Assembly (NCBI GenBank): GCA_032718475.1
Contig: JAUCBJ010008233.1
Coordinates: 1 to 42,462, forward strand
DNA length: 42,462 nt
Source of the DNA: Nemertoderma westbladi
Lineage: Eukaryota; Animalia; Xenacoelomorpha
Reading direction: 5' to 3'
The notes under the pieces are model-generated. The model did no database searches and was not told where the DNA came from. It saw only the letters and a list, made by a program, of their open reading frames with translations. The translations under genes were made by a program, and so were the position numbers. How positions within the stretch are numbered: the stretch's first letter is position 1; the number at the start of each line of letters is the position of its first letter. Below are positions 1,741 through 38,431 of the stretch, in pieces.

Positions 1741-1822
1741 TTCGGTAGTTGTAAGTCAAGTAAAGTGAGTGTCAAAGTATCAAACTTACCGTATTTTATC
1801 TAAACGGTACTAATTACAGTCT

Positions 1823-19100: not shown

Positions 19101-22100
19101 GGGCTGAGGTGTATAACGCCATGTTGGTTGAGAGAGAGATAGAACCAGGGCTGAGGTGTATAACGCCAGGTTGGTAGAGAGAGATAGAACCAGGGCTGAG
19201 GTGTATAACGCCAGGTTGGTAGAGAGAGATAGAACCAGGGCTGAGGTGTATAACGCCAGGTTGGTTGAGGAGAGAGAGAGATAGAACCAGGGCTCAGGTG
19301 TATAACGCCATGTTGGTAGAGAGAGATAGAACCAGGGCTGAGGTGTATAACGCCAGGTTGGTAGAGAGAGATAGAACCAGGGCTGAGGTGTATAACGCCA
19401 GGTTGGTATAGAGAGATAGAACCAGGGCTGAGGTGTATAACGCCATGTTGGTAGAGAGAGATAGAACCAGGGCTGAGGTGTATAACGCCAGGTTGGTAGA
19501 GAGAGATAGAACCAGGGCTGAGGTGTATAACGCCAGGTTGGTAGAGAGAGAGATAGAACCAGGGCTGAGGTGTATAACGCCAGGTTGGTAGAGAGAGATA
19601 GAACCAGGGCTGAGGTGTATAACGCCAGGTTGGTAGAGAGAGATAGAACCAGGGCTGAGGTGTATAACGCCAGGTTGGTATAGGAGAGATAGAACCAGGG
19701 CTGAGGTGTATAACGCCATGTTGGTGAGAGAGAGATAGAACCAGGGCTGAGGTGTATAACGCCAGGTTGGTAGAGAGAGATAGAACCAGGGCTGAGGTGT
19801 ATAACGCCAGGTTGGTAGAGAGAGATAGAACCAGGGCTGAGGTGTATAACGCCAGGTTGGTAGAGAGAGATAGAACCAGGGCTGAGGTGTATAACGCCAG
19901 GTTGGTAGAGATAGAACCAGGGCTGAGGTGTATAACGCCATGTTGGTAAGGAGATAGAACCAGGGCTGAGGTGTATAACGCCAGGTTGGTAGAGAGAGAG
20001 ATAGAACCAGGGCTGAGGTGTATAACGCCAGGTTGGTAGAGAGAGATAGAACCAGGGCTGAGGTGTATAACGCCAGGTTGGTAGAGAGAGATAGAACCAG
20101 GGCTGAGGTGTATAACGCCATGTTGGTAGAGAGAGATAGAACCAGGGCTGAGGTGTATAACGCCAGGTTGGTAAGAGAGATAGAACCAGGGCTGAGGTGT
20201 ATAACGCCAGGTTGGTAAGAGAGAGATAGAACCAGGGCTGAGGTGTATAACGCCAGGTTGGTAGAGAGAGAGATAGAACCAGGGCTGAGGTGTATAACGC
20301 CAGGTTGGTAAGAGAGAGATAGAACCAGGGCTGAGGTGTATAACGCCAGGTTGGTAGAGAGAGATAGAACCAGGGCTGAGGTGTATAACGCCAGGTTGGT
20401 AGAGAGAGATAGAACCAGGGCTGAGGTGTATAACGCCATGTTGGTAGAGAGAGATAGAACCAGGGCTCAGGTGTATAACGCCAGGTTGGTAAGAGAGATA
20501 GAACCAGGGCTGAGGTGTATAACGCCAGGTTGGTAGAGAGAGAGATAGAACCAGGGCTGAGGTGTATAACGCCAGGTTGGTAGAGAGAGAGATAGAACCA
20601 GGGCTGAGGTGTATAACGCCATGTTGGTAGAGAGAGATAGAACCAGGGCTCAGGTGTATAACGCCATGTTGGTAGAGATAGAACCAGGGCTGAGGTGTAT
20701 AACGCCAGGTTGGTTGAGAGAGAGAGAGAACCAGGGCTGAGGTGTATAACGCCAGGTTGGTAGAGAGAGATAGAACCAGGGCTGAGGTGTATAACGCCAG
20801 GTTGGTAGAGAGAGATAGAACCAGGGCTGAGGTGTATAACGCCAGGTTGGTTGAGAGAGAGAGAGAACCAGGGCTGAGGTGTATAACGCCAGGTTGGTAG
20901 AGAGAGATAGAACCAGGGCTGAGGTGTATAACGCCAGGTTGGTAGAGAGAGATAGAACCAGGGCTGAGGTGTATAACGCCAGGTTGGTAGAGATAGAACC
21001 AGGGCTGAGGTGTATAACGCCAGGTTGGTTGAGAGAGAGAGAGAACCAGGGCTGAGGTGTATAACGCCAGGTTGGTAGAGAGAGATAGAACCAGGGCTGA
21101 GGTGTATAACGCCAGGTTGGTAGAGAGAGATAGAACCAGGGCTGAGGTGTATAACGCCAGGTTGGTAGAGAGAGAGAGAACCAGGGCTGAGGTGTATAAC
21201 GCCAGGTTGGTAGAGAGAGATAGAACCAGGGCTCAGGTGTATAACGCCATGTTGGTAGAGATAGAACCAGGGCTGAGGTGTATAACGCCAGGTTGGTAGA
21301 GAGAGATAGAACCAGGGCTCAGGTGTATAACGCCATGTTGGTAGAGATAGAACCAGGGCTGCGGTGTATAACGCCAGGTTGGTAGAGATAGAACCAGGGC
21401 TGAGGTGTATAACGCCATGTTGGTATAGAGAGAGATAGAACCAGGGCTGAGGTGTATAACGCCATGTTGGTAGAGAGAGAGAGAACCAGGGCTGAGGTGT
21501 ATAACGCCAGGTTGGTAGAGAGAGATAGAACCAGGGCTCAGGTGTATAACGCCATGTTGGTAGAGATAGAACCAGGGCTGAGGTGTATAACGCCAGGTTG
21601 GTAGAGAGAGATAGAACCAGGGCTCAGGTGTATAACGCCATGTTGGTAGAGATAGAACCAGGGCTGAGGTATATAACGCCAGGTTGGTAGAGATAGAACC
21701 AGGGCTGAGGTGTATAACGCCATGTTGGTATAGAGAGAGATAGAACCAGGGCTGAGGTGTATAACGCCATGTTGGTAGAGAGAGAGATAGAACCAGGGCT
21801 GATGTGTATAACGCCATGTTGGTAGAGATAGAACCTGGGCTGAGGTGTATAACGCCAGGTTGGTAGAGATAGAACCAGGGCTGAGGTGTATAACGCCAGG
21901 TTGGTAGAGAGAGAGATAGAACCAGGGCTGAGGTGTATAACGCCAGGTTGGTAGAAGGAGAGATAGAACCAGGGCTGAGGTGTATAACGCCAGGTTGGTT
22001 GAGAGAGAGATAGAACCAGGGCTGAGGTGTATAACGCCATGTTGGTAGAGAGAGATAGAACCAGGGCTGAGGTGTATAACGCCAGGTTGGTAGAGAGAGA

Positions 22101-23081
22101 TAGAACCAGGGCTGAGGTGTATAACGCCAGGTTGGTAGAGATAGAAACAGGGCTGAGGTGTATAACGCCATGTTGGTAGAGATAGCACCAGGGCTGAGGT
22201 GTATAACGCCAGGTTGGTAGAGAGAGAGATAGAACCAGGGCTGAGGTGTATAACGCCAGGTTGGTAGAAGGAGAGATAGAACCAGGGCTGAGGTGTATAA
22301 CGCCAGGTTGGTTGAGAGAGAGATAGAACCAGGACTGAGGTGTATAACGCCATGTTGGTAGAGAGAGATAGAACCAGGGCTGAGGTGTATAACGCCATGT
22401 TGGTAGAGAGATATAGAACCAGGGCTGAGGTGTATAACGCCATGTTGGTAGAGAGAGATAGAACCAGGGCTGAGGTGTATAACGCCAGGTTGGTAGAGAG
22501 AGATAGAACCAGGGCTGAGGTGTATAACGCCAGGTTGGTTGAGAGAGAGATAGAACCAGGACTGAGGTGTATAACGCCATGTTGGTAGAGAGAGATAGAA
22601 CCAGGGCTGAGGTGTATAACGCCATGTTGGTAGAGAGATATAGAACCAGGGCTGAGGTGTATAACGCCATGTTGGTAGAGAGAGATAGAACCAGGGCTGA
22701 GGTGTATAACGCCATGTTGGTAGAGAGAGATAGAACCAGGGCTGAGGTGTATAACGCCATGTTGGTTGAGAGAGAGATAGAACCAGGGCTGAGGTGTATA
22801 ACGCCATGTTGGTAGATAGAGATAGAACCAGGGCTGAGGTGTATAACGCCAGGTTGGTAGAGAGAGAGAGAACCAGGGCTGAGGTGTATAACGCCATGTT
22901 GGTAGAGAGAGATAGAACCAGGGCTGAGGTGTATAACGCCATGTTGGTAGAGAGAGATAGAACCAGGGCTGAGGTGTATAACGCCATGTTGGTTGTGAGA
23001 GAGATAGAACCAGGGCTGAGGTGTATAACGCCAGGTTGGTAGAGATAGAACCAGTGCTGAGGTGTATAACGCCAGGTTGGT
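16145..23081 (+). repeat. 41-49-bp minisatellite (~150 units) with an embedded variable (GA)n, derived from the exon end and donor site
   Basis: Unit GGTAGA(GA)nTAGAACCAGGGCTGAGGTGTATAACGCCA(G/T)GTT. The first unit overlaps the coding exon. Confidence 0.97.
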
Positions 23082-23220
23082 AAATACCCGGCAGATACAT
23101 TGGGATTTGAGATACCGGTATATGATAGTGGTTTAAGTAAACAACGAGGATTTCATATCCTTTTATCTAAAAATAGTTAAATTAAAAAAAAAACTAATAT
23201 ACGAAATTGGATAGAGTTTC

Positions 23221-23262
23221 AACAAAAGCAAACAGTCGGCCGAAACCGGAGGCAACCCGAGG
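23221..23262. mobile_element. Shared terminus of the 36-bp-array element (Helentron/DINE-1-like, non-autonomous)
   Basis: AACAAAAGCAAACAGTCGGCCGAAACCGGAGGCAACCCGAGG. Its reverse complement aligns with the flank of array A at ~10854-10894. The AACAA-hairpin-ACCCG layout recalls DINE-1 ends. Confidence 0.45.
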
Positions 23263-26200
23263 GTAGGGGTGGGCGCTACTCCTATCTGCTACTCGAGGGA
23301 AGGAATGCGCGCTACTCTTATCTGCTACCCGAGGGTAGGGGTGGGCGCTACTCCTATCTGCTACCCAAAGGTAGGGGCGGGCGCTACTCCTATCTGCTAC
23401 CCGAGGGTAGGGGTGGGCGCTACTCCTATCTGCTACCCGAGGGTAGGGGTGGGCGCTACTCCTATCTGCTACCCGACGGTAGGGGTGGGCGCTACTCCTA
23501 TCTGCTACCCGACTGTAGGGGTGGGCGCTACTCCTATCTGCTACCCGAGGGTAGGGGTGGGCGCTACTCCTATCTGCTACCAGAGGGTAGGAATGGGCGC
23601 TACTCCTATCTGCTACCCGAAGGTAGGGGTGGGCGCTACTCCTATCTGCTACCCGAAGGTAGGGGTGGGCGCTACTCCTATCTGCTACCCGAAGGTAGGG
23701 GTGGGCGCTACTCCTATCTGCTACCCGAGGGTAGGGGTGGGCGCTACTCCTATCTGCTACCCGAGGGTAGGGGTGGGCGCTACTCCTATCTGCTACCCAA
23801 AGGTAGGGGCGGACGCTACTCATATCTGCTACCCGACGGTAGGGGTGGGTGCTACTCCTATCTGCTACCCGAAGGTAGGGATGGGCGCTACTCCTATCTG
23901 CTACCCGAAGGTAGGGGTGGGCGCTACTCCTATCTGCTACCCGAGGGTAGGGGTGGGTGCTACTCCTATCTGCTACCCGAGGGTAGGGGTGGGCGCTACT
24001 CCTATCTGCTACCCAAAGGTAGGGGCGGACGCTACTCATATCTGCTACCCGACGGTAGGGGTGGGCGCTACTCCTATCTGCTACCCGACGGTAGGGGTGG
24101 GCGCTACTCCTATCTGCTACCCAACGGTAGGGGTGGGCGCTATTCCTATCTGCTACCCGACGATAGGGGTGGACGCTACTCCTATCTGCTACCCGAAGGT
24201 AGGGGTGGGCGCTATTCCTATCTGCTACCCGACGGTTGGGGTGGGCGCTACTCCTATCTGCTACCCGACGGTAGGGGTTGGCGCTACTCCTATCTGCTAC
24301 CCGAAGGTAGGGGTGGGCGCTATTCCTATCTGCTACCCGACGGTTGGGGTGGGCGCTACTCCTATCTGCTACCCGACGGTAGGGGTGGGCGCTACTCCTA
24401 TCTGCTACCCGACGGTAGGGGTGGGCGCTACTCCTATCTGCTACCCGACTGTAGGGGTGGGCGCTACTCCTATCTGCTACCCGACGGTAGGGGTGGGCGC
24501 TATTCCTATCTGCTACCCGACGGTAAGGGTGGACGCTACTCATATCTGCTACCCGACGGTAGGGGTGGGCGCTACTTCTATCTGCTACCCGACGGTAGGG
24601 GTGGGCGCTACTCCTATCTGCTACCCGACGGTAGGGGTGGGCGCTACTCCTATCTGCTACCCGACGGTAGGGGTGGGCGCTACTCCTATCTGCTACCCGA
24701 CGGTAAGGGTGGACGCTACTCATATCTGCTACCCGACGGTAAGGGTGGACGCTACTCATATCTGCTACCCGACGGTAGGGGTGGGCGCTACTTCTATCTG
24801 CTACCCGATGGTAGGGGTGGGCGCTACTCCTATCTGCTACCCGACGGTAGGGGTGGGCGCTACTCCTATCTGCTACCCGAAGGTAGGGGTGGGCGCTATT
24901 CCTATCTGCTACCCGACGGTTGGGGTGGGCGCTACTCCTATCTGCTACCCGACGGTAGGGGTGGGCGCTACTCCTATCTGCTAACCGACGGTAGGGGTGG
25001 ACGCTACTCATATCTGCTACCCGAAGATAGGGGTGGACGCTAATCCTATCTGCTACCCGACGGTAGGGGTAGGCGCTACTCCTATCTGCTATCCGACGGT
25101 AGGGGTGGGCGCTACTCCTATCTGCTACCCGAAGGTAGGGGTGGACGCTACTCCTATCTGCTACCCGAAGGTCAGGGTGTGCGCTACTCCTATCTGCTAA
25201 CCGACGGTAGGGGTGGACGCTACTCATATCTGCTAACCGACGGTAGGGGTGGACGCTACTCATATCTGCTACCCGAAGATAGGGGTGGACGCTAATCCTA
25301 TCTGATACCCGACGGTAGGGGTAGGCGCTTCTCCTATCTGCTACCCGACGGTAGGGGTGGGCGCTACTCCTAGCTGCTACCCGAGGGTAGGAATGGGCGC
25401 TACTCCTATCTGCTACCCGAAGGTAGGGGTGGGCGCTACTCCTATCTGCTACCCGAAGGTAGGGGTGGACGTACTCATATCTGCTACCCGAAGATAGGGG
25501 TGGACGCTAATCCTATCTGCTACCCGACGGTAGGGGTAGGCGCTACTCCTATCTGCTACCCGAAGGTAGGGGTGGGCGCTACTCCTATCTGCTACCTGAA
25601 GGTAGGGGTGGGCGCTACTCCTATCTGCTACCCGACGGTAGGGGTGGGCGCTACTCCTATCTGCTACCCGACGGTAGGGGTGGACGCTACTCCGATCTGC
25701 TACCCGAAGGTAGGGGTGGACGCTACTCCTATCTGCTACCCGAAGGTAGGGGTGGGCTCTACCCCTATCTGCTACCCGAAGGTAGGGGTGGGCACTACTC
25801 CTATCTGCTACCTGAAGGTAGGGGTGGGCGCTACTCCTATCTGCTACCCGATGGTAGGGGTTGGCGCTACTCCTATCTGCTACCAGAAGGTAGGGGTGGG
25901 CGCTACTCCAATCTGCTACCCGACGGTAGGGGTGGGCGCTACTCATATCTGCTACCCGACGGTAGGGGTGGACGCTACTCCTATCTGTTACCCGAATGTA
26001 GGGGTGGGCGCTACTCCTATCTGCTACCCGAGGGTAGGGGTGGGCGCTACTCCTATCTGCTACCCGAAGGTAGGGATGGGCGCTACTCCTATCTGCTACC
26101 CGAAGGTAGGGGTGGGCGCTACTCCTATCTGTTACCCGACGGTAAGGGTGGGCGCTACTCTTATCTGCTACCCGACGGTAGGGGTGGACGCTACTCATAT

Positions 26201-27950
26201 CTGCTACCCGAAGGTAGGGGTTGGCGTTACTCCTATCTGCTACCCGAGGGTAGGAATGGGCGCTACTCCTATCTGCTACCCTAAGGTAGGGGTGGGCGCT
26301 ACTCACATCTGCTACCCGAAGGTAGGGGTTGGCGTTACTCCTATCTGCTACCCGAGGGTAGGGGTGGGCGCTACTCCTATCTGCTACCCGACGGTAGGGG
26401 TGGACGCTACTCCTATCTGCTACCCGAAGGTAGGGGTGGGCGCTATTCCTATCTGCTACCCGACGGTTGGGGTGGGCGCTACTCCTATCTGCTACCCGAC
26501 GGTAGGGGTGGGCGCTACTCCAATCTGCTACCCGACGGTAGGGGTGGACGCTACTCCTATCTGCTACCCGACGGTAGGGGTGGACGCTACTCCTATCTGC
26601 TACCCGAAGGTCAGGGTGGGCGCTACTGCTATCTGCTACCCGAAGGTAGGGATGGGCGCTACTCCTATCTGCTACCCGAGGGTAGGGGTGGGCGCTACTC
26701 CTATCTGCTACCAGAGGGTAGGAATGGGCGCTACTCCTATCTGCTACCCGAAGGTAGGGGTGGGCGCTACTCCTATATGCTACCCGAAGGTAGGGGTGGG
26801 CGCTACTCCTATCTGCTACCCGAAGGTAGGGGTGGGCGCAACTCCTATCTGCTACCCGAGGGTAGGGGTGGGCGCTACTCCTATCTGCTACCCGAGGGTA
26901 GGGGTGGGCGCTACTCCTATCTGCTACCCAAAGGTAGGGGCGGACGCTTCTCATATCTGCTACCCGACGGTAGGGGTGGGTGCTACTCCTATCTGCTACC
27001 CGAAGGTAGGGATGGGCGCTACTCCTATCTGCTACCCGAAGGTAGGGGTGGGCGCTACTCCTATCTGCTACCCGAGGGTAGGGGTGGGCGCTACTCCTAT
27101 CTGCTACCCGAGGGTAGGGGTGGGCGCTACTCCTATCTGCTACCCAAAGGTAGGGGCGGACGCTACTCATATCTGCTACCCGAAGGTAGGGGTGGACGCT
27201 ACTCCTATCTGCTACCCGACGGTAGGGGTAGGCGCTACTCCTATCTGCTACCCGACGGTAAGGGTGGGCGCTACTCCTATCTGCTACCCGATGGTAGGGG
27301 TGGGCGCTACTATCTGCTACCCGACGGTAGGGGTGGGCGCTACTCCTATCTGCTACCCGAGGGTAGGGGTGGGCGCTACTCCTATTGCTACCGGACGGTA
27401 GGGGTGGACGCTACTCATCTGCTACCCGAAGGTAGGGGTGGGCGCTATTCCTATCTGCTACCCGACGGTAGGGGTGGGCGCTACTCCTATCTGCTACCCG
27501 ACGGTAGGGGTGGACGCTACTCATATCTGCTACCCGTAGGTAGGGGTGGACGCTATTCCTATCTGCTACCCGACAGTAGGGGTGGGCGCTACTCCTATCT
27601 GCTACCCGACGGTAGGGGTTGGCGCTACTCCTATCTGCTACCCGACGGTAGGGGTGGACGCTACTCATATCTGCTACCCGAAGGTAGGGGTGGACGCTAC
27701 TCCTATCTGCTACCCGACGGTAGGGGTAGGCGCTACTCCTATCTGCTACCCGACGGTAAGGGTGGGCGCTACTCCTATCTGCTACCCGACGGTAGGGGTG
27801 GGCGCTACTATCTGCTACCCGACGGTAGGGGTGGACGCTACTCATATCTGCTACCCGACGGTAGTGGTGGGCTCTACCCCTATCGGCTACCCGACGGTAG
27901 GGGTGGGCGCTACTCCTATCTGCTACCCGACGGTAGGGGTGGACGCTACT
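23256..27950 (-). repeat. 36-bp minisatellite array B (~130 units), inverted relative to array A
   Basis: Unit ACCCGA(A/G/C)GGTAGGGGTGGGCGCTACTCCTATCTGCT, the reverse complement of the array A unit. Confidence 0.97.
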
Positions 27951-28159
27951 TATTATTATTCTCGCCTATTAGGCGCAGCACCAGTCAAGCTGGTATATAA
28001 TTGAATAGTTAAATAATGAAGTAAAATGACACATCAGTGACAATAAAATATGGCTAATCGTAAACAGTGACTAAAATCATAATTATAATTATTTACGTAA
28101 ACAGAGACAGTATCATCAATTAAAGTTATTTACCATTTACGTCACACACCTTGACAACT

Positions 28160-31100
28160 TTAAAACCAGGCGGGATAACAAAATAAATCTAATATCATGT
28201 TGTGCTTAAATTTAAAACTGGTAGATAAACGGTAGCAGCTATCTATGAAGTTGATTTTGACCGCCTCTGCTAGTGATACTTCACCTGGTATTATTCGATT
28301 TTTTAGGGCTGATTTTGAGTATTTATTTGTTAAAAGAGACTGCATATTGGGGAGTGGGTATGCTTTATAACTCTTTTCATATGTGGAGAAGACACCTGTG
28401 TAAGAAGCACCGTATTCCGAAGCACTTACTCGAAGGAATGACTGAATTAACATATTGTTGGATTCAAACGATCGTGTAATGATCCCAATATTTTGCCGAT
28501 ATACTTCCATTGAGAGTGGAATACAACCAAGTAGGTTGTACACAACCTGGTTGTCTGCATATGGTCCGAGGTGGAGGATGCTCCGTAAGGCCTTACGGTA
28601 TGCCACATCTAACAGTTCGATTTCAGTATCACGCATGGAACCCACAGTAAACTTGAGAGTATACAAGATGGAAGGTATAGCTACCGTCCGCCATATATAT
28701 CCAACGGTTGTGCAGTCAAAGTGTCTTGTAGTCCAACCATGTCTGTGAAAGCAGCTGGTTAACCTTGCGATCGACTGCTGTGCATCCTTTAATGCAGATG
28801 TATTCACTGAGTACAATGGATAACCCAGGAATGTAAGTTTAGGGCTGGCTGGAACTAAGGTGGTATTAATACTTAGAAACGACGGGATTTCTTTTGCCGA
28901 TTGACCATTCCCAACGAATACCGCCCATTTCGTTTTGGATCCTTCTATGTCCAATTTTATATTGTTGAGCTCTGTTGTTAGTAACAACACCATTGCCTCT
29001 AAGTCATGCATTGTACGGCTGCAAAGAAGCACATCATCAGCATAAGCTAGGCAGCCCAACCAATGAAGATGAAGGTTAAATCCATATCCACTTGACTCAA
29101 GTGCTGAGATAGCATCTGAGGTGTAGAAGAGAAATAATAATGGTGATATCAAGCTACCCTGTTTCACACCCCGCCGAATGATGATTCCCTCACAATCTAT
29201 TAAGTTACCAAAACGTAGATAGGCGGCTGTTTGGAGATAATACGAAACCATGGACAGACAGATGAATGGATTGAGGTAGGATGATAGCTTCTTGAATAGT
29301 GTAATGTACTGGACGTTATCAAATGCTCCATGCATGTCCATCTGACACATGTAAACGTTTTGACCCCGACTACGTTGTGAATTCAAAAATTCTAGAAGTG
29401 CTGCGATGATTAAATCTGAGCCCATTTTCTTTTGATATGCCAGCTGGGAAAGTGGGATGCATTCAAAAAGCACAGGCAAATATTCCTGCAGCAGGACGCT
29501 TTCAAAAACCTTCCCAAAGATACTAACTGAAGATATTGGGCGATAGGACCTTGGATTCAACTGTGGACGGTTTTTCCCTTTATATATATGAGTAATTAAC
29601 GTTTTGCCAAATAATTCAGGCACTTCCCCCAATCGAAAGCATGCATTGACGATATCTGCAAGAACTTCAGTTATGAATGATTCCTCTAGGCAAAGAAGAT
29701 GCTCAACCATTAGTGAAGCTGCATCAGTTGCTTTCCCCAGTGCAAGAGAAGCAATCGCCCGTCGAATAGTGCAAGGAGAAATAATGGGTGGCAAAATATC
29801 GTTACATGAACTACGAAGCTTATCTGTAAACTGCAATAGTTCATCGTCTTCCTGGACATTCGGCTCATTCCTGCACTTCAAGTCTTCTCTTAGAAGTTCT
29901 TGAACATCCCTTGGTGGCGTAGATTTGTCTTTCTTACTAAAATACTGCCAGAATTGCCTAGGATTTTTATCAAATCCTGTTGCTCTCTTCCGAATGTCTT
30001 TATGTAAGAGAGATTTGGTCAGATAATTTTTCAGTTTCCTTATTGAACGACGCGATTCTTTGTAGGCATCTCCAAATATATTATCATCACCTTTACCATC
30101 TTTGCACCATAAATTGTATAGTTGTCGACATGTATTTGTTCTTGATTTCAAAACCCTTGATCGTATACGCAAATTCTTTGTTACATGCTTATTTGAATGG
30201 GTACATGGGAGGTTATGATTGGCTGATAGAGTAAGTATCATTTGCAGTTGGTTTACAAATATATTTGTGTCATCTGCAGTCCATTTTGTAGCACTTGGCA
30301 ATGTCTTATATATGTCGCTAATTCTCTGCGTTACATCATTTTGAAAACGTGTGAGATGATCCTCGCTTATCCTGTTCCATGCAACTCTACCTTTGAGCCG
30401 GCGGGAGTCATGCTGTTGTTCCTCGCAGTTATATACTCGGCTGGTTTTGAACTGGAACAGTGCTGTCAGAGGAACGTGATCCGAGTGGTATGTGCACTCT
30501 TCTTTAAAAATTGTACCCTGAACAAGTTGGTCATTGCCATGTTCATTGGTTATAATGTGATCTATATAGGAAGATCCGTGTCCCCGAAAAGTAATACATG
30601 GCCCCAAGAATTTATTTTCTGTGTCAGCCGCAACCAGACTTCTGTCTACTAAGAAGGAATTGAACCGTGAACCTCTGTCTGTTGGTTTATCCCAACCCCT
30701 GCGGGGACCCTGCAAAGGACCAAGGTCAGCGTTGGTATCAGCTAGTATTAGTGGTGTAGCATCTTCATATTGGTCAAGGATATTGCTGAGTCTCCCCAAA
30801 AATTCCTCATAATTTGCTTTGGGTTTTGAAGTGTCAGGGAAATAGCCATTCAATAAAACTACTGGTTGTACGACTTGGCAGAGTGATGCATGTATCCCTA
30901 TGATATCTTCCCCTGATACAATTTTACTGACATTGGAAAAAGTAGATTTTCGAAATAGCATAGCTACACCACCCCGTACACCATTGTTGACCACATAGTC
31001 TCGACATGTAAAGTAGCAATCAAATTCATTGTGTAACTTCGGTAATAAGTAAGTAGCTTCTAAATTATCCATCCATATTTCTTGCAATGCAAGAATGTCT

Positions 31101-31240
31101 AGGCTATCCAACAGTCCAGCAACAACATCCCAGCTCGGGATAATTCCTCGCACATTAAATGTACCAACTCGCAAGTCACAAGTATCTGGTCGTTGAATAT
31201 TGTATACTTTGTCAGGTGGTGACGTCTTTGTGCTAAACAT
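28160..31240 (-). CDS. LINE ORF2: AP-like endonuclease + reverse transcriptase (1026 aa)
   Basis: EN motifs TFNVRGI, LALQEIW, ADTNA, YIDHI, SDHVP. RT motifs YRPIS, DMHGAFD, GVKQGSLISPLLF, AYADD. Uninterrupted. Confidence 0.96.
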   Translation of the reverse strand: MFSTKTSPPDKVYNIQRPDTCDLRVGTFNVRGIIPSWDVVAGLLDSLDILALQEIWMDNLEATYLLPKLHNEFDCYFTCRDYVVNNGVRGGVAMLFRKSTFSNVSKIVSGEDIIGIHASLCQVVQPVVLLNGYFPDTSKPKANYEEFLGRLSNILDQYEDATPLILADTNADLGPLQGPRRGWDKPTDRGSRFNSFLVDRSLVAADTENKFLGPCITFRGHGSSYIDHIITNEHGNDQLVQGTIFKEECTYHSDHVPLTALFQFKTSRVYNCEEQQHDSRRLKGRVAWNRISEDHLTRFQNDVTQRISDIYKTLPSATKWTADDTNIFVNQLQMILTLSANHNLPCTHSNKHVTKNLRIRSRVLKSRTNTCRQLYNLWCKDGKGDDNIFGDAYKESRRSIRKLKNYLTKSLLHKDIRKRATGFDKNPRQFWQYFSKKDKSTPPRDVQELLREDLKCRNEPNVQEDDELLQFTDKLRSSCNDILPPIISPCTIRRAIASLALGKATDAASLMVEHLLCLEESFITEVLADIVNACFRLGEVPELFGKTLITHIYKGKNRPQLNPRSYRPISSVSIFGKVFESVLLQEYLPVLFECIPLSQLAYQKKMGSDLIIAALLEFLNSQRSRGQNVYMCQMDMHGAFDNVQYITLFKKLSSYLNPFICLSMVSYYLQTAAYLRFGNLIDCEGIIIRRGVKQGSLISPLLFLFYTSDAISALESSGYGFNLHLHWLGCLAYADDVLLCSRTMHDLEAMVLLLTTELNNIKLDIEGSKTKWAVFVGNGQSAKEIPSFLSINTTLVPASPKLTFLGYPLYSVNTSALKDAQQSIARLTSCFHRHGWTTRHFDCTTVGYIWRTVAIPSILYTLKFTVGSMRDTEIELLDVAYRKALRSILHLGPYADNQVVYNLLGCIPLSMEVYRQNIGIITRSFESNNMLIQSFLRVSASEYGASYTGVFSTYEKSYKAYPLPNMQSLLTNKYSKSALKNRIIPGEVSLAEAVKINFIDSCYRLSTSFKFKHNMILDLFCYPAWF

Positions 31241-34200
31241 ACTGCTGCCGCCTAGAAACAGTCACTCTATTGTTGCTAGCGTTCTGTACATATTTGTTGC
31301 CACCAAACTTTGTAATGTTGTTGGCTGTAGCTGTAATGTTCATGATGTTCCACTTTCGACAATTGATATAGTGAGGCCAAAAAGAGCTACCTAGTAGAGT
31401 CGATTGTGCTGACGCATCTGTAGTGATTCGCAAGCTTGTTGTGTTTCCATCTGTATGTACTGATGATATCCTGTGTAAGTGTATCCCTCTATTCCTTATA
31501 AGCTTTTCAATGCCTAACAAATCGATATCTCTTCTATCGGCTGTGACTTGGAGATAAGAGTATGGGTTATTCAGGACGTATCCTTTCCTGTTGTGTTGCG
31601 TTTGTTTGTCAGATGATCCAGGTTGCGAACTTATGCCTCCATTATGTATTACTTTATATGCATCGTTTTGTTTCTCCTTGGATATGGTCTCACTGTGACC
31701 GAATGCCCTGTTATTACGTTTTGTATTCTGCCAGGGGTTGTTGTTACCAGTGGTTGTTCTTGTGTCCTCTCTGTTGTGATCCATATTTCTTGAGCTCCTT
31801 GAATGGGCTACATTATTCTGCACTTCATTGAAAGGCCCTAAGGAGTCATAATAGTTATAGCAAGTTGTTGTTGGCTGCGGCTGTTGTCTATGATCCCTTC
31901 CACTGCCTAGATTCAATTTAGGGATTTGTCTACTTGTTCCATTATGATGGTTTATATTATTCTGTGGTTTTCGAGATTTATTCGTTGAAAACAGATTAGT
32001 GTTTTGTTGGTTAGATCTAGATGACTTCAATGTTGGATGCCTGTGTCTGTCCACATCCACTGATGCCGGATTGGTTTGTTTCCTGTAGGGCCCATCTGCT
32101 TCCTTCATATAGTTATGATTTTCAGTTTTATTGTGATGGTCGAAAGAGTGGATGTTGTTTGTATTTATATTTGAGGTAAGAGTTGCCTCAAGGACTATCC
32201 GTGCATGTCGCTCATGATTTAATTCATCTTTTAAATTACAGACACTTTCCTTTAGTACTGTATTCTCATTTTCAAGAACAGAAAGTCGTGCCTGAATTGT
32301 GGCTACTGAATGTACCAGATCGAGCCTTAGTTGGTCTGTGGCATTATCTTCTACTTTGACGCTACTGGTACTAATGTTACACTTTCGCAATCGTTTTCTG
32401 CATAGTTCCGTGAAAAGGTTCTCCTTTATGCACATTAAAAGCTCATAAATATCAATGCACAGTTCTTTGATCGAATTTCTGGAGATTACTTCAAATGTGG
32501 AGCTTTGGGTTGGGTGCATCAACCGCTTGACATCAATGAGCAGCTCATCTCTGGCACAGTGCAGTTTGGGCTTATTCTCCTGTGATATCATCTTGAGAGC
32601 TTTTTTCCTGTTTGATTTGATGATATTAGTAAAGTCAATTGAATAGGTTCTGTGGGAAAGTGTTTCGTTATTCATGGACTGTGATGAAAGTTGTGTTGAT
32701 GTTTGTGGGAATTGTGCATTCGTCGATGATGGTTGTATTTTAGTATGTGAAGCACTTCCTGATGGTTTGGATTTTGAAGGATGTGGTATTGCTGGTGGTG
32801 GGAGGATGCGACTCTGTTGATGTTGAACTCCACTCTCATCGTAGATTGTATTCTCATATTCCAGGTAGCCAATTTTCACATTTGCAACACCGGTGGAAGA
32901 GGAAATCTCATTTGATTCGGTAGTTAGAGAGCTGTTATTTTTTACTTGAGTCGGTGGGACGTACGTTCGGTCACAAATAACCTGGGGATGTTCCATAAGT
33001 TTGCAATTCTTGAGACATGAAAGAACCCAGTGCCTAGCGGCAGTACTATCATGGTAAATGGGTGATATCGTTGAACTTCCCTGAGCCTGAGCTAGAGCAT
33101 ACAGGCATAAATATATTCCACAGTTTACATAATCATGTTCAGGTTGCTGTGGATATGGCGGCGTACCACCGGCAACTATCCATTTCCGGCTAGAGGAGTC
33201 TGATATATTCCAATCGCTATTACAATCAATGAGAGATAGTAGGTCTGCGATGGCAAAGGTCGTGTTAGTAGGCATAGAAGAACCTTTTGAGCTTAGCAAT
33301 TTGACCGTTTTTATTTGTAAATCTGCAACATGTAGAACCCAGTGATTTTTGGTACATTCTGGAAAAAATATTAGATGTGGTCGGTGTTTTGTGTGTCTCG
33401 CAATGTAGTGGCGGGCCACATATTGTACCGCGATCAGTTGATCATGACCAGGTCGTCGCAGGTTATATGTTAGAGTTGTCAGAATGGGAGCTGTATGTGG
33501 ATACTGCCTGCAGATTAATCCCAGAAAACCGTCAACTACATCATCGTTAATCCATAGGTTTGCTGTATTTATAATTTCTTCTTGTTTTTTGGGCTCACTG
33601 TAGTTTAACTCCAGACACTTCAGCGATTCTTTTGCTGGTACTGGGTAGTTAGGCGCTGTAGTGCAGATAGAGTCAATGAAGATTCTAATTTCAGATGGTA
33701 TGTCACGTTCGCACATATTTAGATTGTTGTCTGGGTAAACATCATAACCAGTGCCGGCATCATTAGTTGCTTCATTGTAAGCGTGGCGCACCTTAGGGTT
33801 TAAGTTTCCACCCAATGTAACATCGTCAATGACTACCACACTGTTGTCAAATGATACATGTTTGTGTTCAGGATCATCTTCAGTAAGATCTATTGTTTCT
33901 GGAATAGTGATTTCAGGTTTATGTTTCTTCCTGAAGAAATCAGTTATCTTTGTTATATGAGTAGACTGATTCTTGTTGGAGAGGTTCCCTGATACTGCGA
34001 TCGAGGAAGGATCGACTCCGGTTAAACTCGAGGAAGAATCGACTTCGGTTAAACTCGAGGAAGGATCGACTCCGGTTAAACTCGAGGAAGGATCGACTCT
34101 GGTTAAACTCGATGAGGGATCGACTCCGGTTAAACTCGAGGAAGGATCGACTCCGGTTGAACTCGAGGAAGGATCGACTCCGGTTAAACTCGAGGAAGGA

Positions 34201-35237
34201 TCGACTCCGGTTAAACTCGAGGAAGGATCGACTCCGGTTAAACTCGAGGAAGGATCGACTCCGGTTAAACTCGAGGAAGGATCAACTCCGGTTAAACTCG
34301 GGGAAGGATCGACTCCGGTTAAACTCGAGGAAGGATCGACTCCGGTTAGACTCGAGGAAGGATCGACTCTGGTTAAACACGAGGAAGGATCGGCATCGGT
34401 TGAGGTCAAGGACGGATCGACTCCGGTTAAACTCGAGGAAGGATCGACACTGGTTAAACTCGAGGAAGGATCGACTCCGGTTGAACTTGGGGGAGGATCG
34501 ACTCCAGTTGAAGTCGAGGAATGATCGGCACCGGTTGAGCTAGATGAAGGATCGACTCCGGTTGAAGTCGAGGAAGGGTCGGCTCCGCTTAAACTCGAGG
34601 AAGGATCAACTCCGGTTAAACTCGGGGAAGGATCGACTCCGGTTAAACTCGAGGAAGGATCGACTCCGGTTAGACTCGAGGAAGGATCGACTCTAGTTGA
34701 ACACGAGGAAGGATCGGCATCGGTTGAGGTCAAGGACGGATCGACTCCGGTTAAACTCGAGGAAGGATCGACACCGGTTAAACTCGAGGAAGGATCGACT
34801 CTGGTTGAACTTGGGGGAGGATCGACTCCAGTTGAAGTCGAGGAATGATCAGCACTGGTTGAGCTAGATGAAGGATCGACTCCGGTTGAAGTCGAGGAAG
34901 GATCGGCTCCGGTTAAACTCGAGGGACGATCGACTCCGGTTAAACTCGAGGAAGGATCGACTCCAGTTGAAGTCGAGGAATGATCGGCACCGGTTGAGCT
35001 CGATGAAGGATCGACTCCGGTTGAAGTGAAGTCGTGCGTATCGGTGCACGATTGAGCGGATGGAGTGCCTGAGTCCCGGCGGAGGTCCTCTGGGAATATC
35101 GCTTTTCCTTTTAAATCTAAAAGGCGCATAGCACGCTTGAGTTTTTCTGGACGAGATCCCGTAGTGGTTAAATCGTTCTTGTCAAGGAACCGTTTCAGTG
35201 TCTCCGTGTTCATTTTACGGAGACGAGTGTAATCCAT
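31233..35237 (-). CDS. LINE ORF1 (1334 aa): SAP domain, 9-aa Ser/Thr repeats, Ulp1/SENP (C48)-like protease, coiled coil, C-terminal RRM-like motif
   Basis: SAP-like LRKMNTETLKRFLDKNDLTTTGSRPEKLKR; (TGVDPSSSL)n; WINDDVVD...NHWVL...PQQPEHDYVNCGIY; heptads LSVLENENTVLKESVCNLKDEL; LLGSSFWPHYINCRKW, typical of LINE ORF1 C-termini. Confidence 0.88.
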   Translation of the reverse strand: MDYTRLRKMNTETLKRFLDKNDLTTTGSRPEKLKRAMRLLDLKGKAIFPEDLRRDSGTPSAQSCTDTHDFTSTGVDPSSSSTGADHSSTSTGVDPSSSLTGVDRPSSLTGADPSSTSTGVDPSSSSTSADHSSTSTGVDPPPSSTRVDPSSSLTGVDPSSSLTGVDPSLTSTDADPSSCSTRVDPSSSLTGVDPSSSLTGVDPSPSLTGVDPSSSLSGADPSSTSTGVDPSSSSTGADHSSTSTGVDPPPSSTGVDPSSSLTSVDPSSSLTGVDPSLTSTDADPSSCLTRVDPSSSLTGVDPSSSLTGVDPSPSLTGVDPSSSLTGVDPSSSLTGVDPSSSLTGVDPSSSLTGVDPSSSSTGVDPSSSLTGVDPSSSLTRVDPSSSLTGVDPSSSLTEVDSSSSLTGVDPSSIAVSGNLSNKNQSTHITKITDFFRKKHKPEITIPETIDLTEDDPEHKHVSFDNSVVVIDDVTLGGNLNPKVRHAYNEATNDAGTGYDVYPDNNLNMCERDIPSEIRIFIDSICTTAPNYPVPAKESLKCLELNYSEPKKQEEIINTANLWINDDVVDGFLGLICRQYPHTAPILTTLTYNLRRPGHDQLIAVQYVARHYIARHTKHRPHLIFFPECTKNHWVLHVADLQIKTVKLLSSKGSSMPTNTTFAIADLLSLIDCNSDWNISDSSSRKWIVAGGTPPYPQQPEHDYVNCGIYLCLYALAQAQGSSTISPIYHDSTAARHWVLSCLKNCKLMEHPQVICDRTYVPPTQVKNNSSLTTESNEISSSTGVANVKIGYLEYENTIYDESGVQHQQSRILPPPAIPHPSKSKPSGSASHTKIQPSSTNAQFPQTSTQLSSQSMNNETLSHRTYSIDFTNIIKSNRKKALKMISQENKPKLHCARDELLIDVKRLMHPTQSSTFEVISRNSIKELCIDIYELLMCIKENLFTELCRKRLRKCNISTSSVKVEDNATDQLRLDLVHSVATIQARLSVLENENTVLKESVCNLKDELNHERHARIVLEATLTSNINTNNIHSFDHHNKTENHNYMKEADGPYRKQTNPASVDVDRHRHPTLKSSRSNQQNTNLFSTNKSRKPQNNINHHNGTSRQIPKLNLGSGRDHRQQPQPTTTCYNYYDSLGPFNEVQNNVAHSRSSRNMDHNREDTRTTTGNNNPWQNTKRNNRAFGHSETISKEKQNDAYKVIHNGGISSQPGSSDKQTQHNRKGYVLNNPYSYLQVTADRRDIDLLGIEKLIRNRGIHLHRISSVHTDGNTTSLRITTDASAQSTLLGSSFWPHYINCRKWNIMNITATANNITKFGGNKYVQNASNNRVTVSRRQQYV
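34000..35025 (-). repeat. In-frame 27-bp coding tandem repeat (~38 units) with a 324-bp higher-order duplication
   Basis: Unit (+) AAACTCGAGGAAGGATCGACTCCGGTT. The diagnostic variant GAACTTGGGGGAGG occurs at 34483 and 34807 (offset 12 x 27). Confidence 0.93.
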
Positions 35238-35529
35238 ATCCAGAAATACGTGGACGCTAGCACTCGTCTATACGCCCGTTCTGTCTATCCGAGGGATCGC
35301 TTGTTGAGGTCTCTGACGTGGTTGTAGGCTACGAACCCGGCCTCCAGCGAGTATTCTCTGCCAGAAACCTTCGCGCGCGTATTACAGTAGGTACAGCAAA
35401 TAAAATAAAATAAAATCGGAGATAAAATTATGAGTCTGACAGTATTGTCGTGTAGTACAGCGGTACAGCAGTATTAATTAAAATAATTGTGAAATAAAAG
35501 CATATCTACATCCAAAAAAGTTTTAACAA

Positions 35530-38431
35530 TCGTCAGCCAAGGAGTAAACCGCATTGCAATTGACGACGTCGATCTCGATTACATAAGTGTTAAACTATCG
35601 AGTCCAACCAACCCATCGTTCCATGGGACAATACAGGATGTCCTACCGGACAGCAGTGACTGGGCTACGGTTGTTATCAGTGAGATTATGTTCCGAAATT
35701 CAGGGTCCAACAAGCTGACCTCTTCCCGTACAACAGTCTCAAACTCATTGCAGCAAACAAACTCCCACTACGTATACTCAGACAATACCCAATTAAAATC
35801 ACGTATTCGGGGGAAACAGCGCACACCCATCTGGTCTTCCCTCCGGAAGTCAACGGCCTCATACTCTCGAAACAAGTTGCCAAGGACCTTGGAATCATTC
35901 CCAAGAACTTCCTGACTCAAATCATATGCCATGCCAATGTCACTTTCATGGCACCCGGGCAGCACACCGGCAGTCCCATGGAACTTCTCACTGAATTCGC
36001 CGACTTTTGTTTTGCCGTTTACGCCGAATTTCGTAGGTGTGTATACCTGCGCAACTTAAATAATCAGGTCAGGAGACCCAACTATCCAACTCCTAGCCCA
36101 TATGGCTTGCGCCAATATCCCACCATCAGCTCACATATTTTCTGCCTTCAACGCCGCATCGGGATACTGGCAGGTGCCACTCGATGAGGAATCGCAACCC
36201 CTCACCATATTCCATATTCGCGACCCCATGGGGTCAATACAAGCACCTATGCAGCCCAATGGGACTCATTTCATCTGGGGATGAATATAACCAATGGGGC
36301 AATGATGCTCTGCTCGGTCTCCCTAACACAGTTAAACACATAGATGACATACTCCTCTATGACTCAACCATAGAGGAACACATCGCACACTTACGCGTGT
36401 TCCTTAACTGCTGTTGCATACACGGCATCTGCCTCCACCCTGGTAAAACCCAACTTGCCCAGCCTGAGGTTCGGTTAGCGAGATACATATTTGGCGCCTC
36501 TGGAGTAAAAGCAGAACCCGCAAAACTACGCGCGATCTCCAGTTTCCCATGCCAAGCCAACCCCACCATCACCAACTTAAACAGTTTTGTCAGACTAGCT
36601 GAGCAACTGGTGGTTTTCAGCGCCAACCTACTGTAGCTTCTATACTCGGTCCATTGCATCCTCTCCTAAGAACTCCTCAAAAGTATCCAAAAAACTCATT
36701 TATATGGACAATGGACCACAACCTCACCTTTGAAGCAACTAAAAAGGCGCTCACATCGCCCCTGATCCTTACAACATTCGACTCTACTGGAAATGGCGAT
36801 CCAAACGAACGCCTCCTATCTCCATGGACTTGGATACGCCCTGCTACAATGACACGGTGAAACCTGGAGATTCGACGAATCCACCGAGATGGAGGCACAT
36901 TACGCAATGGTGGAACTCGAACTGCTTGCCACAGTGTGGGTAATAAACAAATGTCGATTATTTCTGTTGGGAATTCCCCACTTCGAACTTATTGTTGACC
37001 ACCAGCCACTGGTGACAATAATAGTCAAATATACACTTGACGCCACCAACAACATCCACCTCCAGCGTTTGAAGGCTAAACTCTCCCCATACATCTTCAC
37101 AATGATATGGAAGAAGGGGAAATCCTACCTCATTCCTGACGCCCTCTCACTCGCTCCCATCGATGACCCCAGGGTAATGACGTCACAGACGATGGAGAAA
37201 TCTCAGTGTATATCTGTGCAACCACCCTTAATGCAGTAGCCATAATCCAGGACCATGCACCGGGCTACCTTGCAGACCCTCCCCTGGATTCCCTGGCTAA
37301 CACAGCAAAAGATGACCCCAACTACGTCATCTTACACCGCGCTGTCGAGACCGGATTTCCCACCACCTTCCACTCGGACCCAGCTGCTGGAATGTATTGG
37401 GCGATCCGGGATGAACTTGCCACGGATGGCGACCTCGTTTTATTTGGGAGTCACATCGTAATCCCCACCGCCACCCACAAAGAGACACTGCGAACTCTCC
37501 ATGCCTCCAACCAGGGTATCGAGCGTACACTGCGTCGAGCCCGTCAATGCGTCTTTTGGCCTGGACTTACCAATCATGTCACTACGCGCCTGTGACGAAT
37601 GTCGAATGTCTCACCCAATGCCAAAGCTTTGGAAAAGAAACCTCCACCAGCGACCCACCAGCAACTCGACCATTCGAGAAATGTCAGCCGACCTTTTTGC
37701 CCTAGATAGAAAACAATTTATGGTGATGGTCGATCGTTACTCCAGGTGGCCGGAAGTCCACCAATTACATCATACCCCACCGCAGACCATACAATACGTG
37801 CCATCCACGAAATATTTATCTGGTTTGGCGTTCCAATCCAATTACGTTCCGATGGAGGAATACAGTTTAATAAGGCTGCGTTCAGCATGTTTCTTAAACA
37901 CTGGGGTGTCACACCAGTGACGTCATCACTAGAATACCCCCAGAGTAACGGCCCCGCTGAGGCTGCCATTAAGGCCCTGAAAGGACTCCTTTCGAAGACA
38001 GGGGCTTCCATACAGTCTCCAGAATTCCTGAAATGCCATTCGGACATCGCTCCCGAGTACCAACACACCATCATGGTGGTGCCACACACCTCCCACCCCT
38101 AGTCGTGGGTACACTATTAAGGGTACAACACCCCACTACTAAACGATGGGACCATGGTGGAAGGCCACCTGGTGGAAACCATCGACCACTGGAAATACCG
38201 TGTCCGGATGCTGTCCGGAATCGCCGACACGTGTTGGTTAACACAGCAACGGCGTCATCGACAGAAACGCCCACGACAACAATGAAATCACCCACACGTG
38301 ACGTGAGCTGGGACACACCCCTCACAGACACGCGGGACGCCCCAAAGACATATCCACACTGCGCACGCCGCCAACCTAACAGACTGTTGTGTGTGATGAT
38401 ATGGATTGCCCCACATATGCCAACTATATAG
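35530..38431 (+). pseudogene. pol: Degenerate Gypsy (Mag/K02A2.6-like) pol: protease-RT-RNase H-integrase
   Basis: VLPDSS (protease remnant), ASGYWQVPLDEES, TPWGQY..PMGL, HIDDILL, YAMVELELLATVW, VDHQPL, LHASNQGIERTLRRAR..FWPG, ADLF..VDRYS, SDGGIQF, YPQSNGPAE. Many frameshifts and stops. Confidence 0.93.

What the first reader, a model, noticed from the sequence alone, without database searches (positions are those of the whole stretch)
33030..35237. LINE ORF1 fused to SAP and Ulp1/SENP-like SUMO-protease domains
ORF1 is 1334 aa, with an N-terminal SAP DNA-binding-like motif and a C48-like domain: W.ND, His in NHW (33342-33344), PQQ and Cys in NCG (33120-33122). These precede the normal coiled-coil/RRM-like ORF1 core. 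Ulp1 domains are known in NeSL-type retroelements and several DNA transposons (SAP plus protease in Zisupton), but I do not recall this architecture in ORF1 of APE-type LINEs. SUMO is needed for piRNA-guided chromatin silencing, so a chromatin-tethered deSUMOylase would be a plausible anti-silencing device. Caveat: the position of the catalytic Asp (His+17, normally the DS motif) reads LLSS, so activity may be altered or lost.
Basis: partly seen in the sequence, partly recalled or inferred. Interest (0 to 1): 0.85.

Follow-up and report, generated by a model that had tools for sequence, protein, structure and literature searches.

The report
LINE ORF1 carrying SUMO-protease domain
An intact jumping gene (a LINE) carries a SUMO-protease-type domain and likely SUMO-binding motifs fused into the front of its first protein, so it is predicted to strip the host's SUMO tags from chromatin or repair proteins, although one catalytic residue is changed and the activity is untested.

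Summary
Observation largely confirmed. An intact two-ORF LINE (about 35447-27951, minus strand; APE+RT ORF2) has a 1334-aa ORF1 whose residues ~545-745 match yeast Ulp1 by sequence (E=1.4e-6) and SENP/Ulp1 by fold (Z 20.4). His632, Cys706, Gln698 and both Trp are kept; the catalytic Asp is Ser649 (Asp in 21 of 21 homologous domains). No listed variant touches it in four runs, and a 5.1-kb contig from a public run joins protease to RT, so this is no assembly chimera. An 81%-identical relative keeps the Cys motif with 9 of 11 changed codons synonymous. New here: a PIP-box-like motif and two SIM-like motifs just upstream of the protease, which favour SUMO as target. The SAP head (below Pfam cut-off) and the RRM are unproven; no close relatives, clade or donor were found. 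Best reading: an ORF1p-borne deSUMOylase with a variant triad (0.45); rivals are a SUMO-binding pseudo-enzyme and self-cleavage. Anti-piRNA action is only one possible target. Ulp1 is known in NeSL/Utopia, Ginger and Mutator; I found no report in an APE-LINE ORF1, but Repbase/Dfam could not be searched. The scan noted Ulp1 in NeSL-type and OTU in LINE elements elsewhere, not this architecture.

The parts
27951..35447 (-). APE-RT LINE, two intact ORFs; the true 5' end may lie further upstream; no target-site duplication found
   Evidence: ORFs; contigs leave the window sequence at 35430-35468 into four different upstream sequences; an X2 contig of 951 letters reaches 99 beyond 28050, i.e. to about 27951; TSD search negative
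35238..35447 (-). 5' UTR, 210 nt, no upstream ATG
31233..35237 (-). ORF1, 1334 aa
35103..35237 (-). basic SAP-like (helix-extended-helix) head, aa 1-45; assignment weak
   Evidence: Pfam SAP E=0.0098, 16 bits, below cut-off 23.9; 15 K+R in aa 1-59; no SAP hit in PDB
34001..35022 (-). 27-nt tandem repeat, 37.9 copies, read in frame as a Ser/Thr-rich acidic 9-residue spacer (aa ~72-412); linker differs between copies
   Evidence: composition; variant sequence after the head in X1 and X3
33918..33956 (-). PIP-box-like motif (I431-T-D-F-F435; no Gln at position 1, His at +4) followed by a basic cluster, possible NLS (label from recall)
   Evidence: motif definition PMC6881253 passages
33873..33893 (-). 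SIM-like motif 1 (I449-D-L-T-E-D-D)
   Evidence: general SIM definition PMC12751080 passages; the V/I-D-L-T subtype is recalled
33822..33839 (-). SIM-like motif 2 (V467-V-V-I-D-D)
33810..33815 (-). Leu475-Gly476 codons leading into the Gly476-Gly477 pair upstream of the protease, a possible self-cleavage site (weak)
   Evidence: 4 Gly-Gly pairs in ORF1 against 1.4 expected outside the repeat
33003..33605 (-). Ulp1/SENP-fold (clan CE) protease domain, aa ~545-745: W562, H632, W633, S649 (Asp position, codon AGC, 33293-33291), Q698, C706
32163..32333 (-). coiled coil, aa 969-1025
   Evidence: heptad count; weak coiled-coil Pfam hits
31338..31592 (-). C-terminal globular part of ORF1, putative RRM-like (from recall, untested)
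   Evidence: no Pfam or PDB hit; aa 861-1334 resembles unnamed eukaryotic clusters of 283-411 aa, scores 0.89-0.91
28160..31240 (-). ORF2, 1026 aa, APE endonuclease plus reverse transcriptase (YADD at 29044-29033); overlaps the ORF1 stop by 8 nt; no RNase H hit, no CCHC
27951..28159 (-). 3' UTR ending in a short hairpin (27963-27975) and a (TAA)n tail that abuts a 36-bp minisatellite
   Evidence: whole UTR folds no better than shuffles (z -0.93)

Best explanation
The element is an intact APE-RT LINE whose ORF1 protein carries a Ulp1/SENP-fold domain that likely still cuts SUMO off host proteins with a variant His-Ser-Cys triad, and is predicted to be held at SUMO-marked chromatin or replication/repair sites by two SIM-like motifs, a PIP-like motif and a possible SAP head. 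Shown: the fusion, the fold match, the kept His/Cys/Gln/Trp, the Ser in place of Asp, the motifs, purifying selection on the Cys motif in a relative. Inferred: the C-terminal third (coiled coil plus putative RRM) does the usual ORF1p job of oligomerising and packaging the element's RNA, so each particle brings several protease heads on long flexible spacers into the nucleus; SIMs bind poly-SUMO, the PIP-like motif binds PCNA, the head binds DNA; removal of SUMO then loosens silencing complexes on the element's copies or clears SUMO-dependent repair factors at the insertion site. Which of those two targets matters is not resolved.
For: Sequence-only match to Ulp1 and SENP2 as best PDB rows; model pLDDT 77, the first 23 VIA rows are all SENP/Ulp1 (Z 20.4-17.5, rmsd about 3, 180 aligned), NEDD8 protease follows at 16.1. 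His-Trp and Cys-Gly are invariant in 14 of 14 aligned rows including the query. Ser649 is two base changes from an Asp codon and no variant is listed there in 4 of 4 runs that cover it, so it is not a private decay of this copy. A 140-nt contig in X1, X2, X3 (81% identical over 99 nt) keeps Cys706-Gly707; 9 of 11 changed codons among the 13 listed differences are synonymous (P about 1e-4; about 0.01 if all 6 unlisted differences were non-synonymous). PIP-like, and the two SIM-like patterns occur in 0.2%, 0.16% and 1% of 5000 shuffles of ORF1 without its repeat, all three together in 0 of 5000, and they cluster within 45 residues. A Cys-His-Ser triad works in USP30 (PMC8927814 passages). L1 ORF1p enters the nucleus and L1 ORF2p meets PCNA at forks (PMC5821460 passages); SUMO is needed for piRNA-guided and piRNA-independent transposon repression in flies (PMC7676866).
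Against: Asp stands at His+17 in 21 of 21 homologous domains, Ser only here; USP30 is another fold, so it is an analogy. The selected fragment covers only aa ~695-727, not His632 or Ser649, and its link to a LINE is not shown. Among near-identical copies ORF1 shows no significant selection (7 of 18 changed codons synonymous, P=0.12), and X4 carries changes at D565 and P696. The model was built on an alignment of C48 hits, so its fold ranking is partly circular; the single-sequence model failed (pLDDT 33.5). Motif patterns were chosen after seeing the sequence; loose PIP patterns occur in 45% of shuffles. An aromatic position that I recall as a SUMO contact in Ulp1 ('SFF') reads T-T-L here. In human L1 the chromatin-bound ORF2p-PCNA complex is depleted of ORF1p. 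SAP and RRM are unproven.
Confidence: 0.45

Rival explanations
1. The domain is a pseudo-protease: with the Asp lost it binds SUMO but cuts poorly or not at all, and together with the SIMs acts as a SUMO reader or trap that steers the particle to SUMOylated chromatin or forks, or sequesters SUMO.
For: Asp replaced, against 21 of 21 homologues; SIM-like motifs beside the domain; chromatin-reader PHD domains are common in ORF1s (PMC4120745 section 9).
Against: Nucleophile Cys, His and oxyanion Gln are all kept, and Cys is kept in the diverged relative; a pure binder would be expected to lose these first (inference).
Confidence: 0.25
2. The protease processes the element's own protein, cutting ORF1p after a Gly-Gly pair (aa 476-477 upstream of the domain, or aa 1312-1313 near the end) to release the head and spacer or to mature the RNA-binding core.
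For: 4 Gly-Gly pairs in ORF1, 1.4 expected outside the repeat; Ulp1-type enzymes cut after Gly-Gly (established knowledge); earlier unchecked notes propose this for NeSL-type elements.
Against: No relatives to show that any pair is conserved; none lies between protease and coiled coil, where a cut would free the core; a cut at 476-477 would part the SIMs from the protease; SENPs need a folded SUMO body (established knowledge).
Confidence: 0.12
3. Active protease, but for ubiquitin or NEDD8, protecting the element's proteins from degradation.
For: Clan CE enzymes vary in specificity (NEDD8 protease and bacterial DUBs at Z 16-12); Josephin domains of Dualen elements are proposed to block degradation (PMC8557442 passage).
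Against: SUMO proteases rank first by sequence and fold; SIM-like motifs.
Confidence: 0.08
4. A captured passenger: a protease fragment picked up recently and now decaying without function.
For: Catalytic Asp lost; no selection signal among near-identical copies; no other element with this architecture found.
Against: Synonymous bias in the 81%-identical relative; the domain is only 22-39% identical to anything in 1.84 billion representatives, yet open and in frame.
Confidence: 0.07
5. Artefact: an assembly chimera or a nested insertion in one copy.
For: No single listed contig spans the whole element because the repeat breaks them; no target-site duplication.
Against: One ORF without stop from head to C-terminus; an X2 contig of 5098 letters runs from RT (28933) through the protease into the repeat (34030) with 16 other letters over 28933-33960; X1 and X3 contigs also bridge protease and core; no joints listed.
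Confidence: 0.03

Closest known systems
NeSL elements of nematodes and Utopia-1_TSP (PMC4640811, passages)
   Same: [quoted passage not shown]
   Different: They are single-ORF elements with a restriction-like endonuclease and the protease is on the RT protein; here the endonuclease is APE, there are two ORFs and the protease is in ORF1.
Ginger1 and Mutator DNA transposons with Ulp1 (PMC2836005, passages); Zisupton (SAP cited in PMC8557442; its Ulp1 domain is recalled, paper not seen)
   Same: Transposon-borne Ulp1 domain, with a chromatin or DNA binder (PHD, SAP); a role in ubiquitin/SUMO control of repair during transposition was already proposed.
   Different: DNA transposons; protease fused to or beside a transposase; catalytic Asp kept in the comparable hits seen here. 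A quick tree did not place this domain with any group.
LINE ORF1 proteins with accessory domains: PHD and SGNH esterase (PMC4120745, abstract, passages, section 9, supplements; PMC3905857, passages)
   Same: Modular ORF1 with coiled coil and a shuffled extra domain; an enzyme in ORF1 has precedent (esterase).
   Different: Neither text mentions a transposon-encoded protease in ORF1; 'protease', 'Ulp1', 'SUMO', 'SAP' occur 0 times in the survey of 448 Jockey-group ORF1s.
Dualen elements with a Josephin-like protease, and Chlamys Penelope-like elements with SAP or weak Josephin (PMC8557442, passages)
   Same: Ubiquitin-family protease, or SAP, inside a retroelement.
   Different: Other protease fold; not in a separate ORF1; SAP and protease not reported together with Ulp1.
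Cellular SENP/Ulp1 SUMO proteases (1euv, SENP1/2/3/5)
   Same: Fold, His, Cys, Gln, both Trp.
   Different: 15-24% identity, Ser for the catalytic Asp, two extra residues between Gln and Cys.

Membership tests
Ulp1/SENP proteases (Peptidase C48, clan CE) | Fold and sequence similarity of the catalytic domain | tested here: met
   1euv E=1.4e-6; Z 20.4, rmsd 3.0, 181 aligned to SENP5 (model built on C48 alignment)
Ulp1/SENP proteases (Peptidase C48, clan CE) | Catalytic His and Cys, oxyanion Gln, two Trp of the Gly-Gly tunnel (roles recalled) | tested here: met
   H632, C706, Q698, W562, W633
Ulp1/SENP proteases (Peptidase C48, clan CE) | Catalytic Asp at His+17 | tested here: not met
   Ser649; Asp in 21 of 21 homologous domains. 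Hence filed as a Ulp1-fold variant, not a canonical member
Ulp1/SENP proteases (Peptidase C48, clan CE) | Pfam PF02902 gathering score | tested here: not met
   18.7 bits against 20.7
Ulp1/SENP proteases (Peptidase C48, clan CE) | Cleavage after the Gly-Gly of SUMO | not testable with these tools
   needs an assay
SAP domain | PF02037 profile and two-helix fold | tested here: inconclusive
   E=0.0098, 16 bits, cut-off 23.9; no SAP row in PDB search; not folded
APE-type non-LTR retrotransposon (LINE) | ORF2 with APE endonuclease and non-LTR RT, preceded by ORF1 | tested here: met
   Exo_endo_phos 2.3e-8, RVT_1 6.4e-22; R2 and L1 RTs in PDB; catalytic motifs present
APE-type non-LTR retrotransposon (LINE) | 3' tail of short repeats; dispersed copies | tested here: met
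   (TAA)n tail; four different upstream sequences
APE-type non-LTR retrotransposon (LINE) | Target-site duplication (not universal among clades; recalled) | tested here: inconclusive
   none found at this copy's ends; 5' end uncertain and 3' flank is a minisatellite
Named LINE clade (CR1, L2, RTEX, Proto2 ...) | RT phylogeny against reference families | not testable with these tools
   best ORF2 relatives only 21-24% identical, 4 hits; no Repbase references held
L1-like ORF1p (coiled coil + RRM + CTD) | Coiled coil | tested here: met
   11 of 16 a/d positions hydrophobic
L1-like ORF1p (coiled coil + RRM + CTD) | RRM domain | tested here: inconclusive
   no Pfam, PDB or named Atlas match; not folded
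NeSL/Utopia elements | Single ORF with restriction-like endonuclease | tested here: not met
   two ORFs, APE
Zisupton, Ginger1, Mutator | Transposase rather than RT | tested here: not met
   element encodes APE-RT; no transposase family hit on either ORF
PIP box / PIP degron | Hydrophobic 4, aromatic 7 and 8 (with TD at 5-6) | tested here: met
   I431, T432, D433, F434, F435; definition
PIP box / PIP degron | Gln at 1; Lys/Arg at +4 for a degron | tested here: not met
   Ile428 and His439; 34% of confirmed motifs lack the Gln
SUMO-interacting motif | Hydrophobic core with acidic flank | tested here: met
   aa 449-455 and 467-472; the motif is loose; binding untested

The most novel reading that the evidence does not exclude
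A LINE that has built a complete SUMO-removing machine into ORF1p: DNA-binding head, long spacer, PCNA motif, tandem SIMs and a SENP-fold protease working with a Cys-His-Ser triad not described for this clan in what I read, delivered with the element's own RNA to disarm SUMO-dependent silencing or fork protection.
Probability: 0.25. Interest if true: 0.85.

Novelty: new variant of a known kind. Interest (0 to 1): 0.62.

Why it matters
Ulp1 domains have been seen in several transposon groups since about 2000-2010 without a tested function in the papers read here. This element offers an intact, probably recent copy in which the protease sits on the RNA-packaging protein next to SIM-like and PIP-like motifs, so three clean mutations (Cys, SIMs, PIP) can ask whether a transposon fights SUMO-dependent silencing or repair. 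It would be a LINE-encoded counter-defence enzyme, and the Asp-to-Ser change is a natural test of how clan CE proteases tolerate loss of the third triad residue.

Tried and rejected
No whole genome is held, so copies could not be counted or aligned. Word-based protein searches found nothing for the protease region among proteins of 733-2335 aa (620 candidates) or for the C-terminal 489 aa among proteins of 268-856 aa (5366 candidates); these blanks do not show absence. ORF2 found 4 distant RTs. Metagenome scans with the protease (201 pattern matches) and RT (81), and a viral scan with ORF2, confirmed no locus. Of 47 phmmer hits, 27 PKD-repeat and 2 other repeat proteins were dropped as summed chance matches; 17 carry Pfam C48 and one more the motif; none of those 18 matches the ORF1 core, head or ORF2 (best E 0.19 within that small set). 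Single-sequence folding failed. I suspected a Mutator/Ginger donor from the two-residue insertion before Cys, shared with P0024, P0031 and some others; a quick tree of 22 domains left the query on a long branch in an open fork, apart from those proteins, so no donor is claimed (careful search unfinished). The profile score of 85 bits is circular and not used. No RNA holder was listed. X4 has no cover over ORF2; not used as evidence. Contig depth rises towards the 3' end in X1-X3, as 5' truncation would give, but depth is no copy number. The 3' UTR folds no better than shuffles. No complex prediction was obtained. PMC4961225 (one passage), PMC6431247 and PMC5718144 (passages) gave nothing on Ulp1 in ORF1. 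Kojima's 2019 review is not held.


Full report
Observation. The minus strand holds two long open frames: ORF1 35237..31233 (1334 aa) and ORF2 31240..28160 (1026 aa), overlapping by 8 nt. ORF2 is an APE endonuclease plus non-LTR RT (Pfam E 2.3e-8 and 6.4e-22; R2 and L1 in PDB) with its catalytic motifs in place and no CCHC. Its 4 database relatives are 21-24% identical, so the clade is not assigned.

The protease domain. Residues 500-780 hit yeast Ulp1 (1euv) at E=1.4e-6 and SENP2 at 0.0014, the five best of 14 rows being Ulp1/SENP2. Pfam C48 gives E=0.0017, just under its cut-off, and only when the domain is cut out. Of 47 proteins found among 1.84 billion representatives, 18 are C48-type at 22-39% identity and 29 are repeat proteins dropped as chance; none is a close relative or carries an ORF1 core. 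With 13 of the 18 as alignment (the short ones) AlphaFold gave pLDDT 77; Foldseek ranks SENP5 and Ulp1 first (E 1e-8) and VIA-align gives Z 20.4, rmsd 3.0, 181 residues, with 23 SENP/Ulp1 entries ahead of the NEDD8 protease. This is partly circular; the single-sequence model failed. His, Trp, Cys and Gly are invariant in 14 of 14 rows. The Asp at His+17 is present in 21 of 21 homologous domains and is Ser here; the codon is AGC, two changes from Asp. USP30, an unrelated fold, works with Cys-His-Ser (PMC8927814, passages).

Is it part of the family? Four of six listed runs were laid (at most three samples, and the best may be the window's source). An X2 contig of 5098 letters joins RT to the protease and the start of the repeat; X1 and X3 contigs bridge protease and core; no joints are listed. 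No variant is listed at H632, S649, Q698, C706 of the main family or in the PIP/SIM motifs; variants in the domain are D565N and P696Q (X4 only), I602S and a silent one (all four). Contigs leave the window's sequence at 35430-35468 into four different upstream sequences, and X1 and X2 also hold the window's own flank, so there are several loci; X2, X3 and X4 share one upstream sequence, which may be a longer 5' UTR. The 3' end is a hairpin and (TAA)n at 27951. No target-site duplication was found. In X1 and X3 the head is followed by other sequence than in the window, X2 and X4 match the window: the linker varies between copies. A 140-nt contig in three runs matches 33055-33153 with 19 differences; the 13 listed fall in 11 codons, 9 synonymous, Cys706 kept; P is about 1e-4, or 0.01 in the worst case for the 6 unlisted. 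That shows purifying selection on the Cys helix in a relative, whose element type is unknown and which does not cover His or Ser649. Near-identical copies give no significant signal in ORF1 (7 of 18 codons synonymous, P=0.12).

Rest of ORF1. Residues 1-45 are basic and weakly SAP-like (E=0.0098, under cut-off; no PDB support). Residues ~72-412 are a 27-nt repeat in 37.9 copies. Between repeat and protease lie I431-T-D-F-F with a basic tail, I449-D-L-T-E-D-D and V467-V-V-I-D-D. The first fits positions 4-8 of a PIP box with the TD pair but lacks Gln1 and the +4 basic residue of a degron (PMC6881253, passages); the others fit the loose SIM pattern (PMC12751080, passages). They occur in 0.2%, 0.16% and 1% of 5000 shuffles, together in none, but the patterns were chosen after the fact. 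A Gly-Gly pair follows at 476-477. After the protease come a linker, a coiled coil at 969-1025, an N/Q/H-rich stretch and a C-terminal part with no Pfam or PDB match; the Atlas links aa 861-1334 to unnamed eukaryotic clusters of 283-411 aa at 0.89-0.91, a lead that the core exists elsewhere without the extension. The RRM label is recall.

Mechanism. Most likely (0.45) the ORF1 protein oligomerises by its coiled coil, packages the RNA and carries a SUMO protease with a variant triad to SUMO-marked chromatin or forks. SUMO and Su(var)2-10 act in piRNA-guided silencing, and SUMO represses R1/R2 independently of piRNA (PMC7676866, abstract and passages); L1 ORF1p enters nuclei and ORF2p meets PCNA at forks, though that complex is depleted of ORF1p (PMC5821460, passages). 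Rivals: SUMO-binding pseudo-enzyme (0.25), self-cleavage at Gly-Gly (0.12, idea taken from earlier scan notes), ubiquitin/NEDD8 protease (0.08), passenger (0.07), artefact (0.03). No donor can be named: the quick tree is unresolved.

What is known. Ulp1 domains are reported in NeSL and Utopia-1_TSP (PMC4640811, passages) and in Ginger1 and Mutator, with a proposed role in repair during transposition (PMC2836005, passages). SAP is reported in Zisupton and a Chlamys element, Josephin in Dualen (PMC8557442, passages). The survey of 448 Jockey-group ORF1s never mentions a protease, Ulp1, SUMO or SAP (PMC4120745, term search, abstract, section 9, three supplements), nor does the L1 survey (PMC5203782, term search of main text and one supplement; the other could not be searched). 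Searches for Ulp1 + non-LTR retrotransposon + ORF1 (2 unrelated papers), Ulp1 + retrotransposon + protease domain (11), cysteine protease + non-LTR retrotransposons + ORF1 + SUMO (0), Ulp1 + Repbase + non-LTR (6) and transposon + SUMO protease/anti-silencing/deSUMOylase (14) listed no APE-LINE ORF1 with Ulp1; I saw listings only for most of them. Repbase, Dfam, the Zisupton paper and Kojima's review were not seen, and Repbase reports are the likeliest place for a prior record. The scan's own notes hold no look-alike sequence and no finding with all the words, but several on Ulp1 in NeSL-type and LTR elements and OTU in LINEs (unchecked).

Verdict. A real, family-level fusion; a new variant of a known kind (transposon-borne Ulp1 domain, here in ORF1 with SIM-like and PIP-like motifs and an Asp-to-Ser change). 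Function inferred, directly testable. Interest 0.62.

Noticed in passing
window 9626-9753 and 10478-10605 (+): A ~130-nt unit ending in a hairpin-like stretch and (TTA)7, resembling an L2-type 3' tail (label recalled), is repeated in tandem with the same minisatellite family that abuts the 3' tail of the LINE at 27950; in both cases the tail runs into the same strand of the minisatellite. Possible target preference or slippage.
   Followed up: partly
window 32409, run X4: One X4 contig carries loose letters that look like a template-switch cDNA adapter (recalled), joined so that it would read antisense to ORF1; X4 may be a cDNA library listed as DNA. Single contig.
   Followed up: no
window 35035, runs X1 and X3: Contigs nearly identical over 5' UTR and head continue with a different sequence of 175 or more letters; read by eye the 30 printed letters keep the ORF1 frame and look like another 9-residue unit, if they are those next to the junction.
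   Followed up: partly
window 33378-33428, run X2: A 490-nt low-depth contig matches 51 nt of the protease domain with 8 differences: perhaps another diverged relative.
   Followed up: no
window 35493-38431 (+): Broken gypsy-like LTR retrotransposon pol region in many short frames (weak RVT_1 hit at 36097-36633), directly upstream of the LINE's 5' end.
   Followed up: no
window 1-1755 (-): 585-aa frame, open at the window edge, coiled-coil rich, no Pfam hit; may be a gag-like ORF (guess).
   Followed up: no
window 6111-7622 (+): Broken frames that read like a Mutator-type transposase (recalled motifs; no Pfam hit for 6527-6946).
   Followed up: no
window 16017-23150 and 23181-27950: Two long minisatellite arrays with strong strand skew give spurious frames of up to 1736 aa.
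   Followed up: no
protein P0010: A 1342-aa database protein with three C48 stretches around a SET domain.
   Followed up: no
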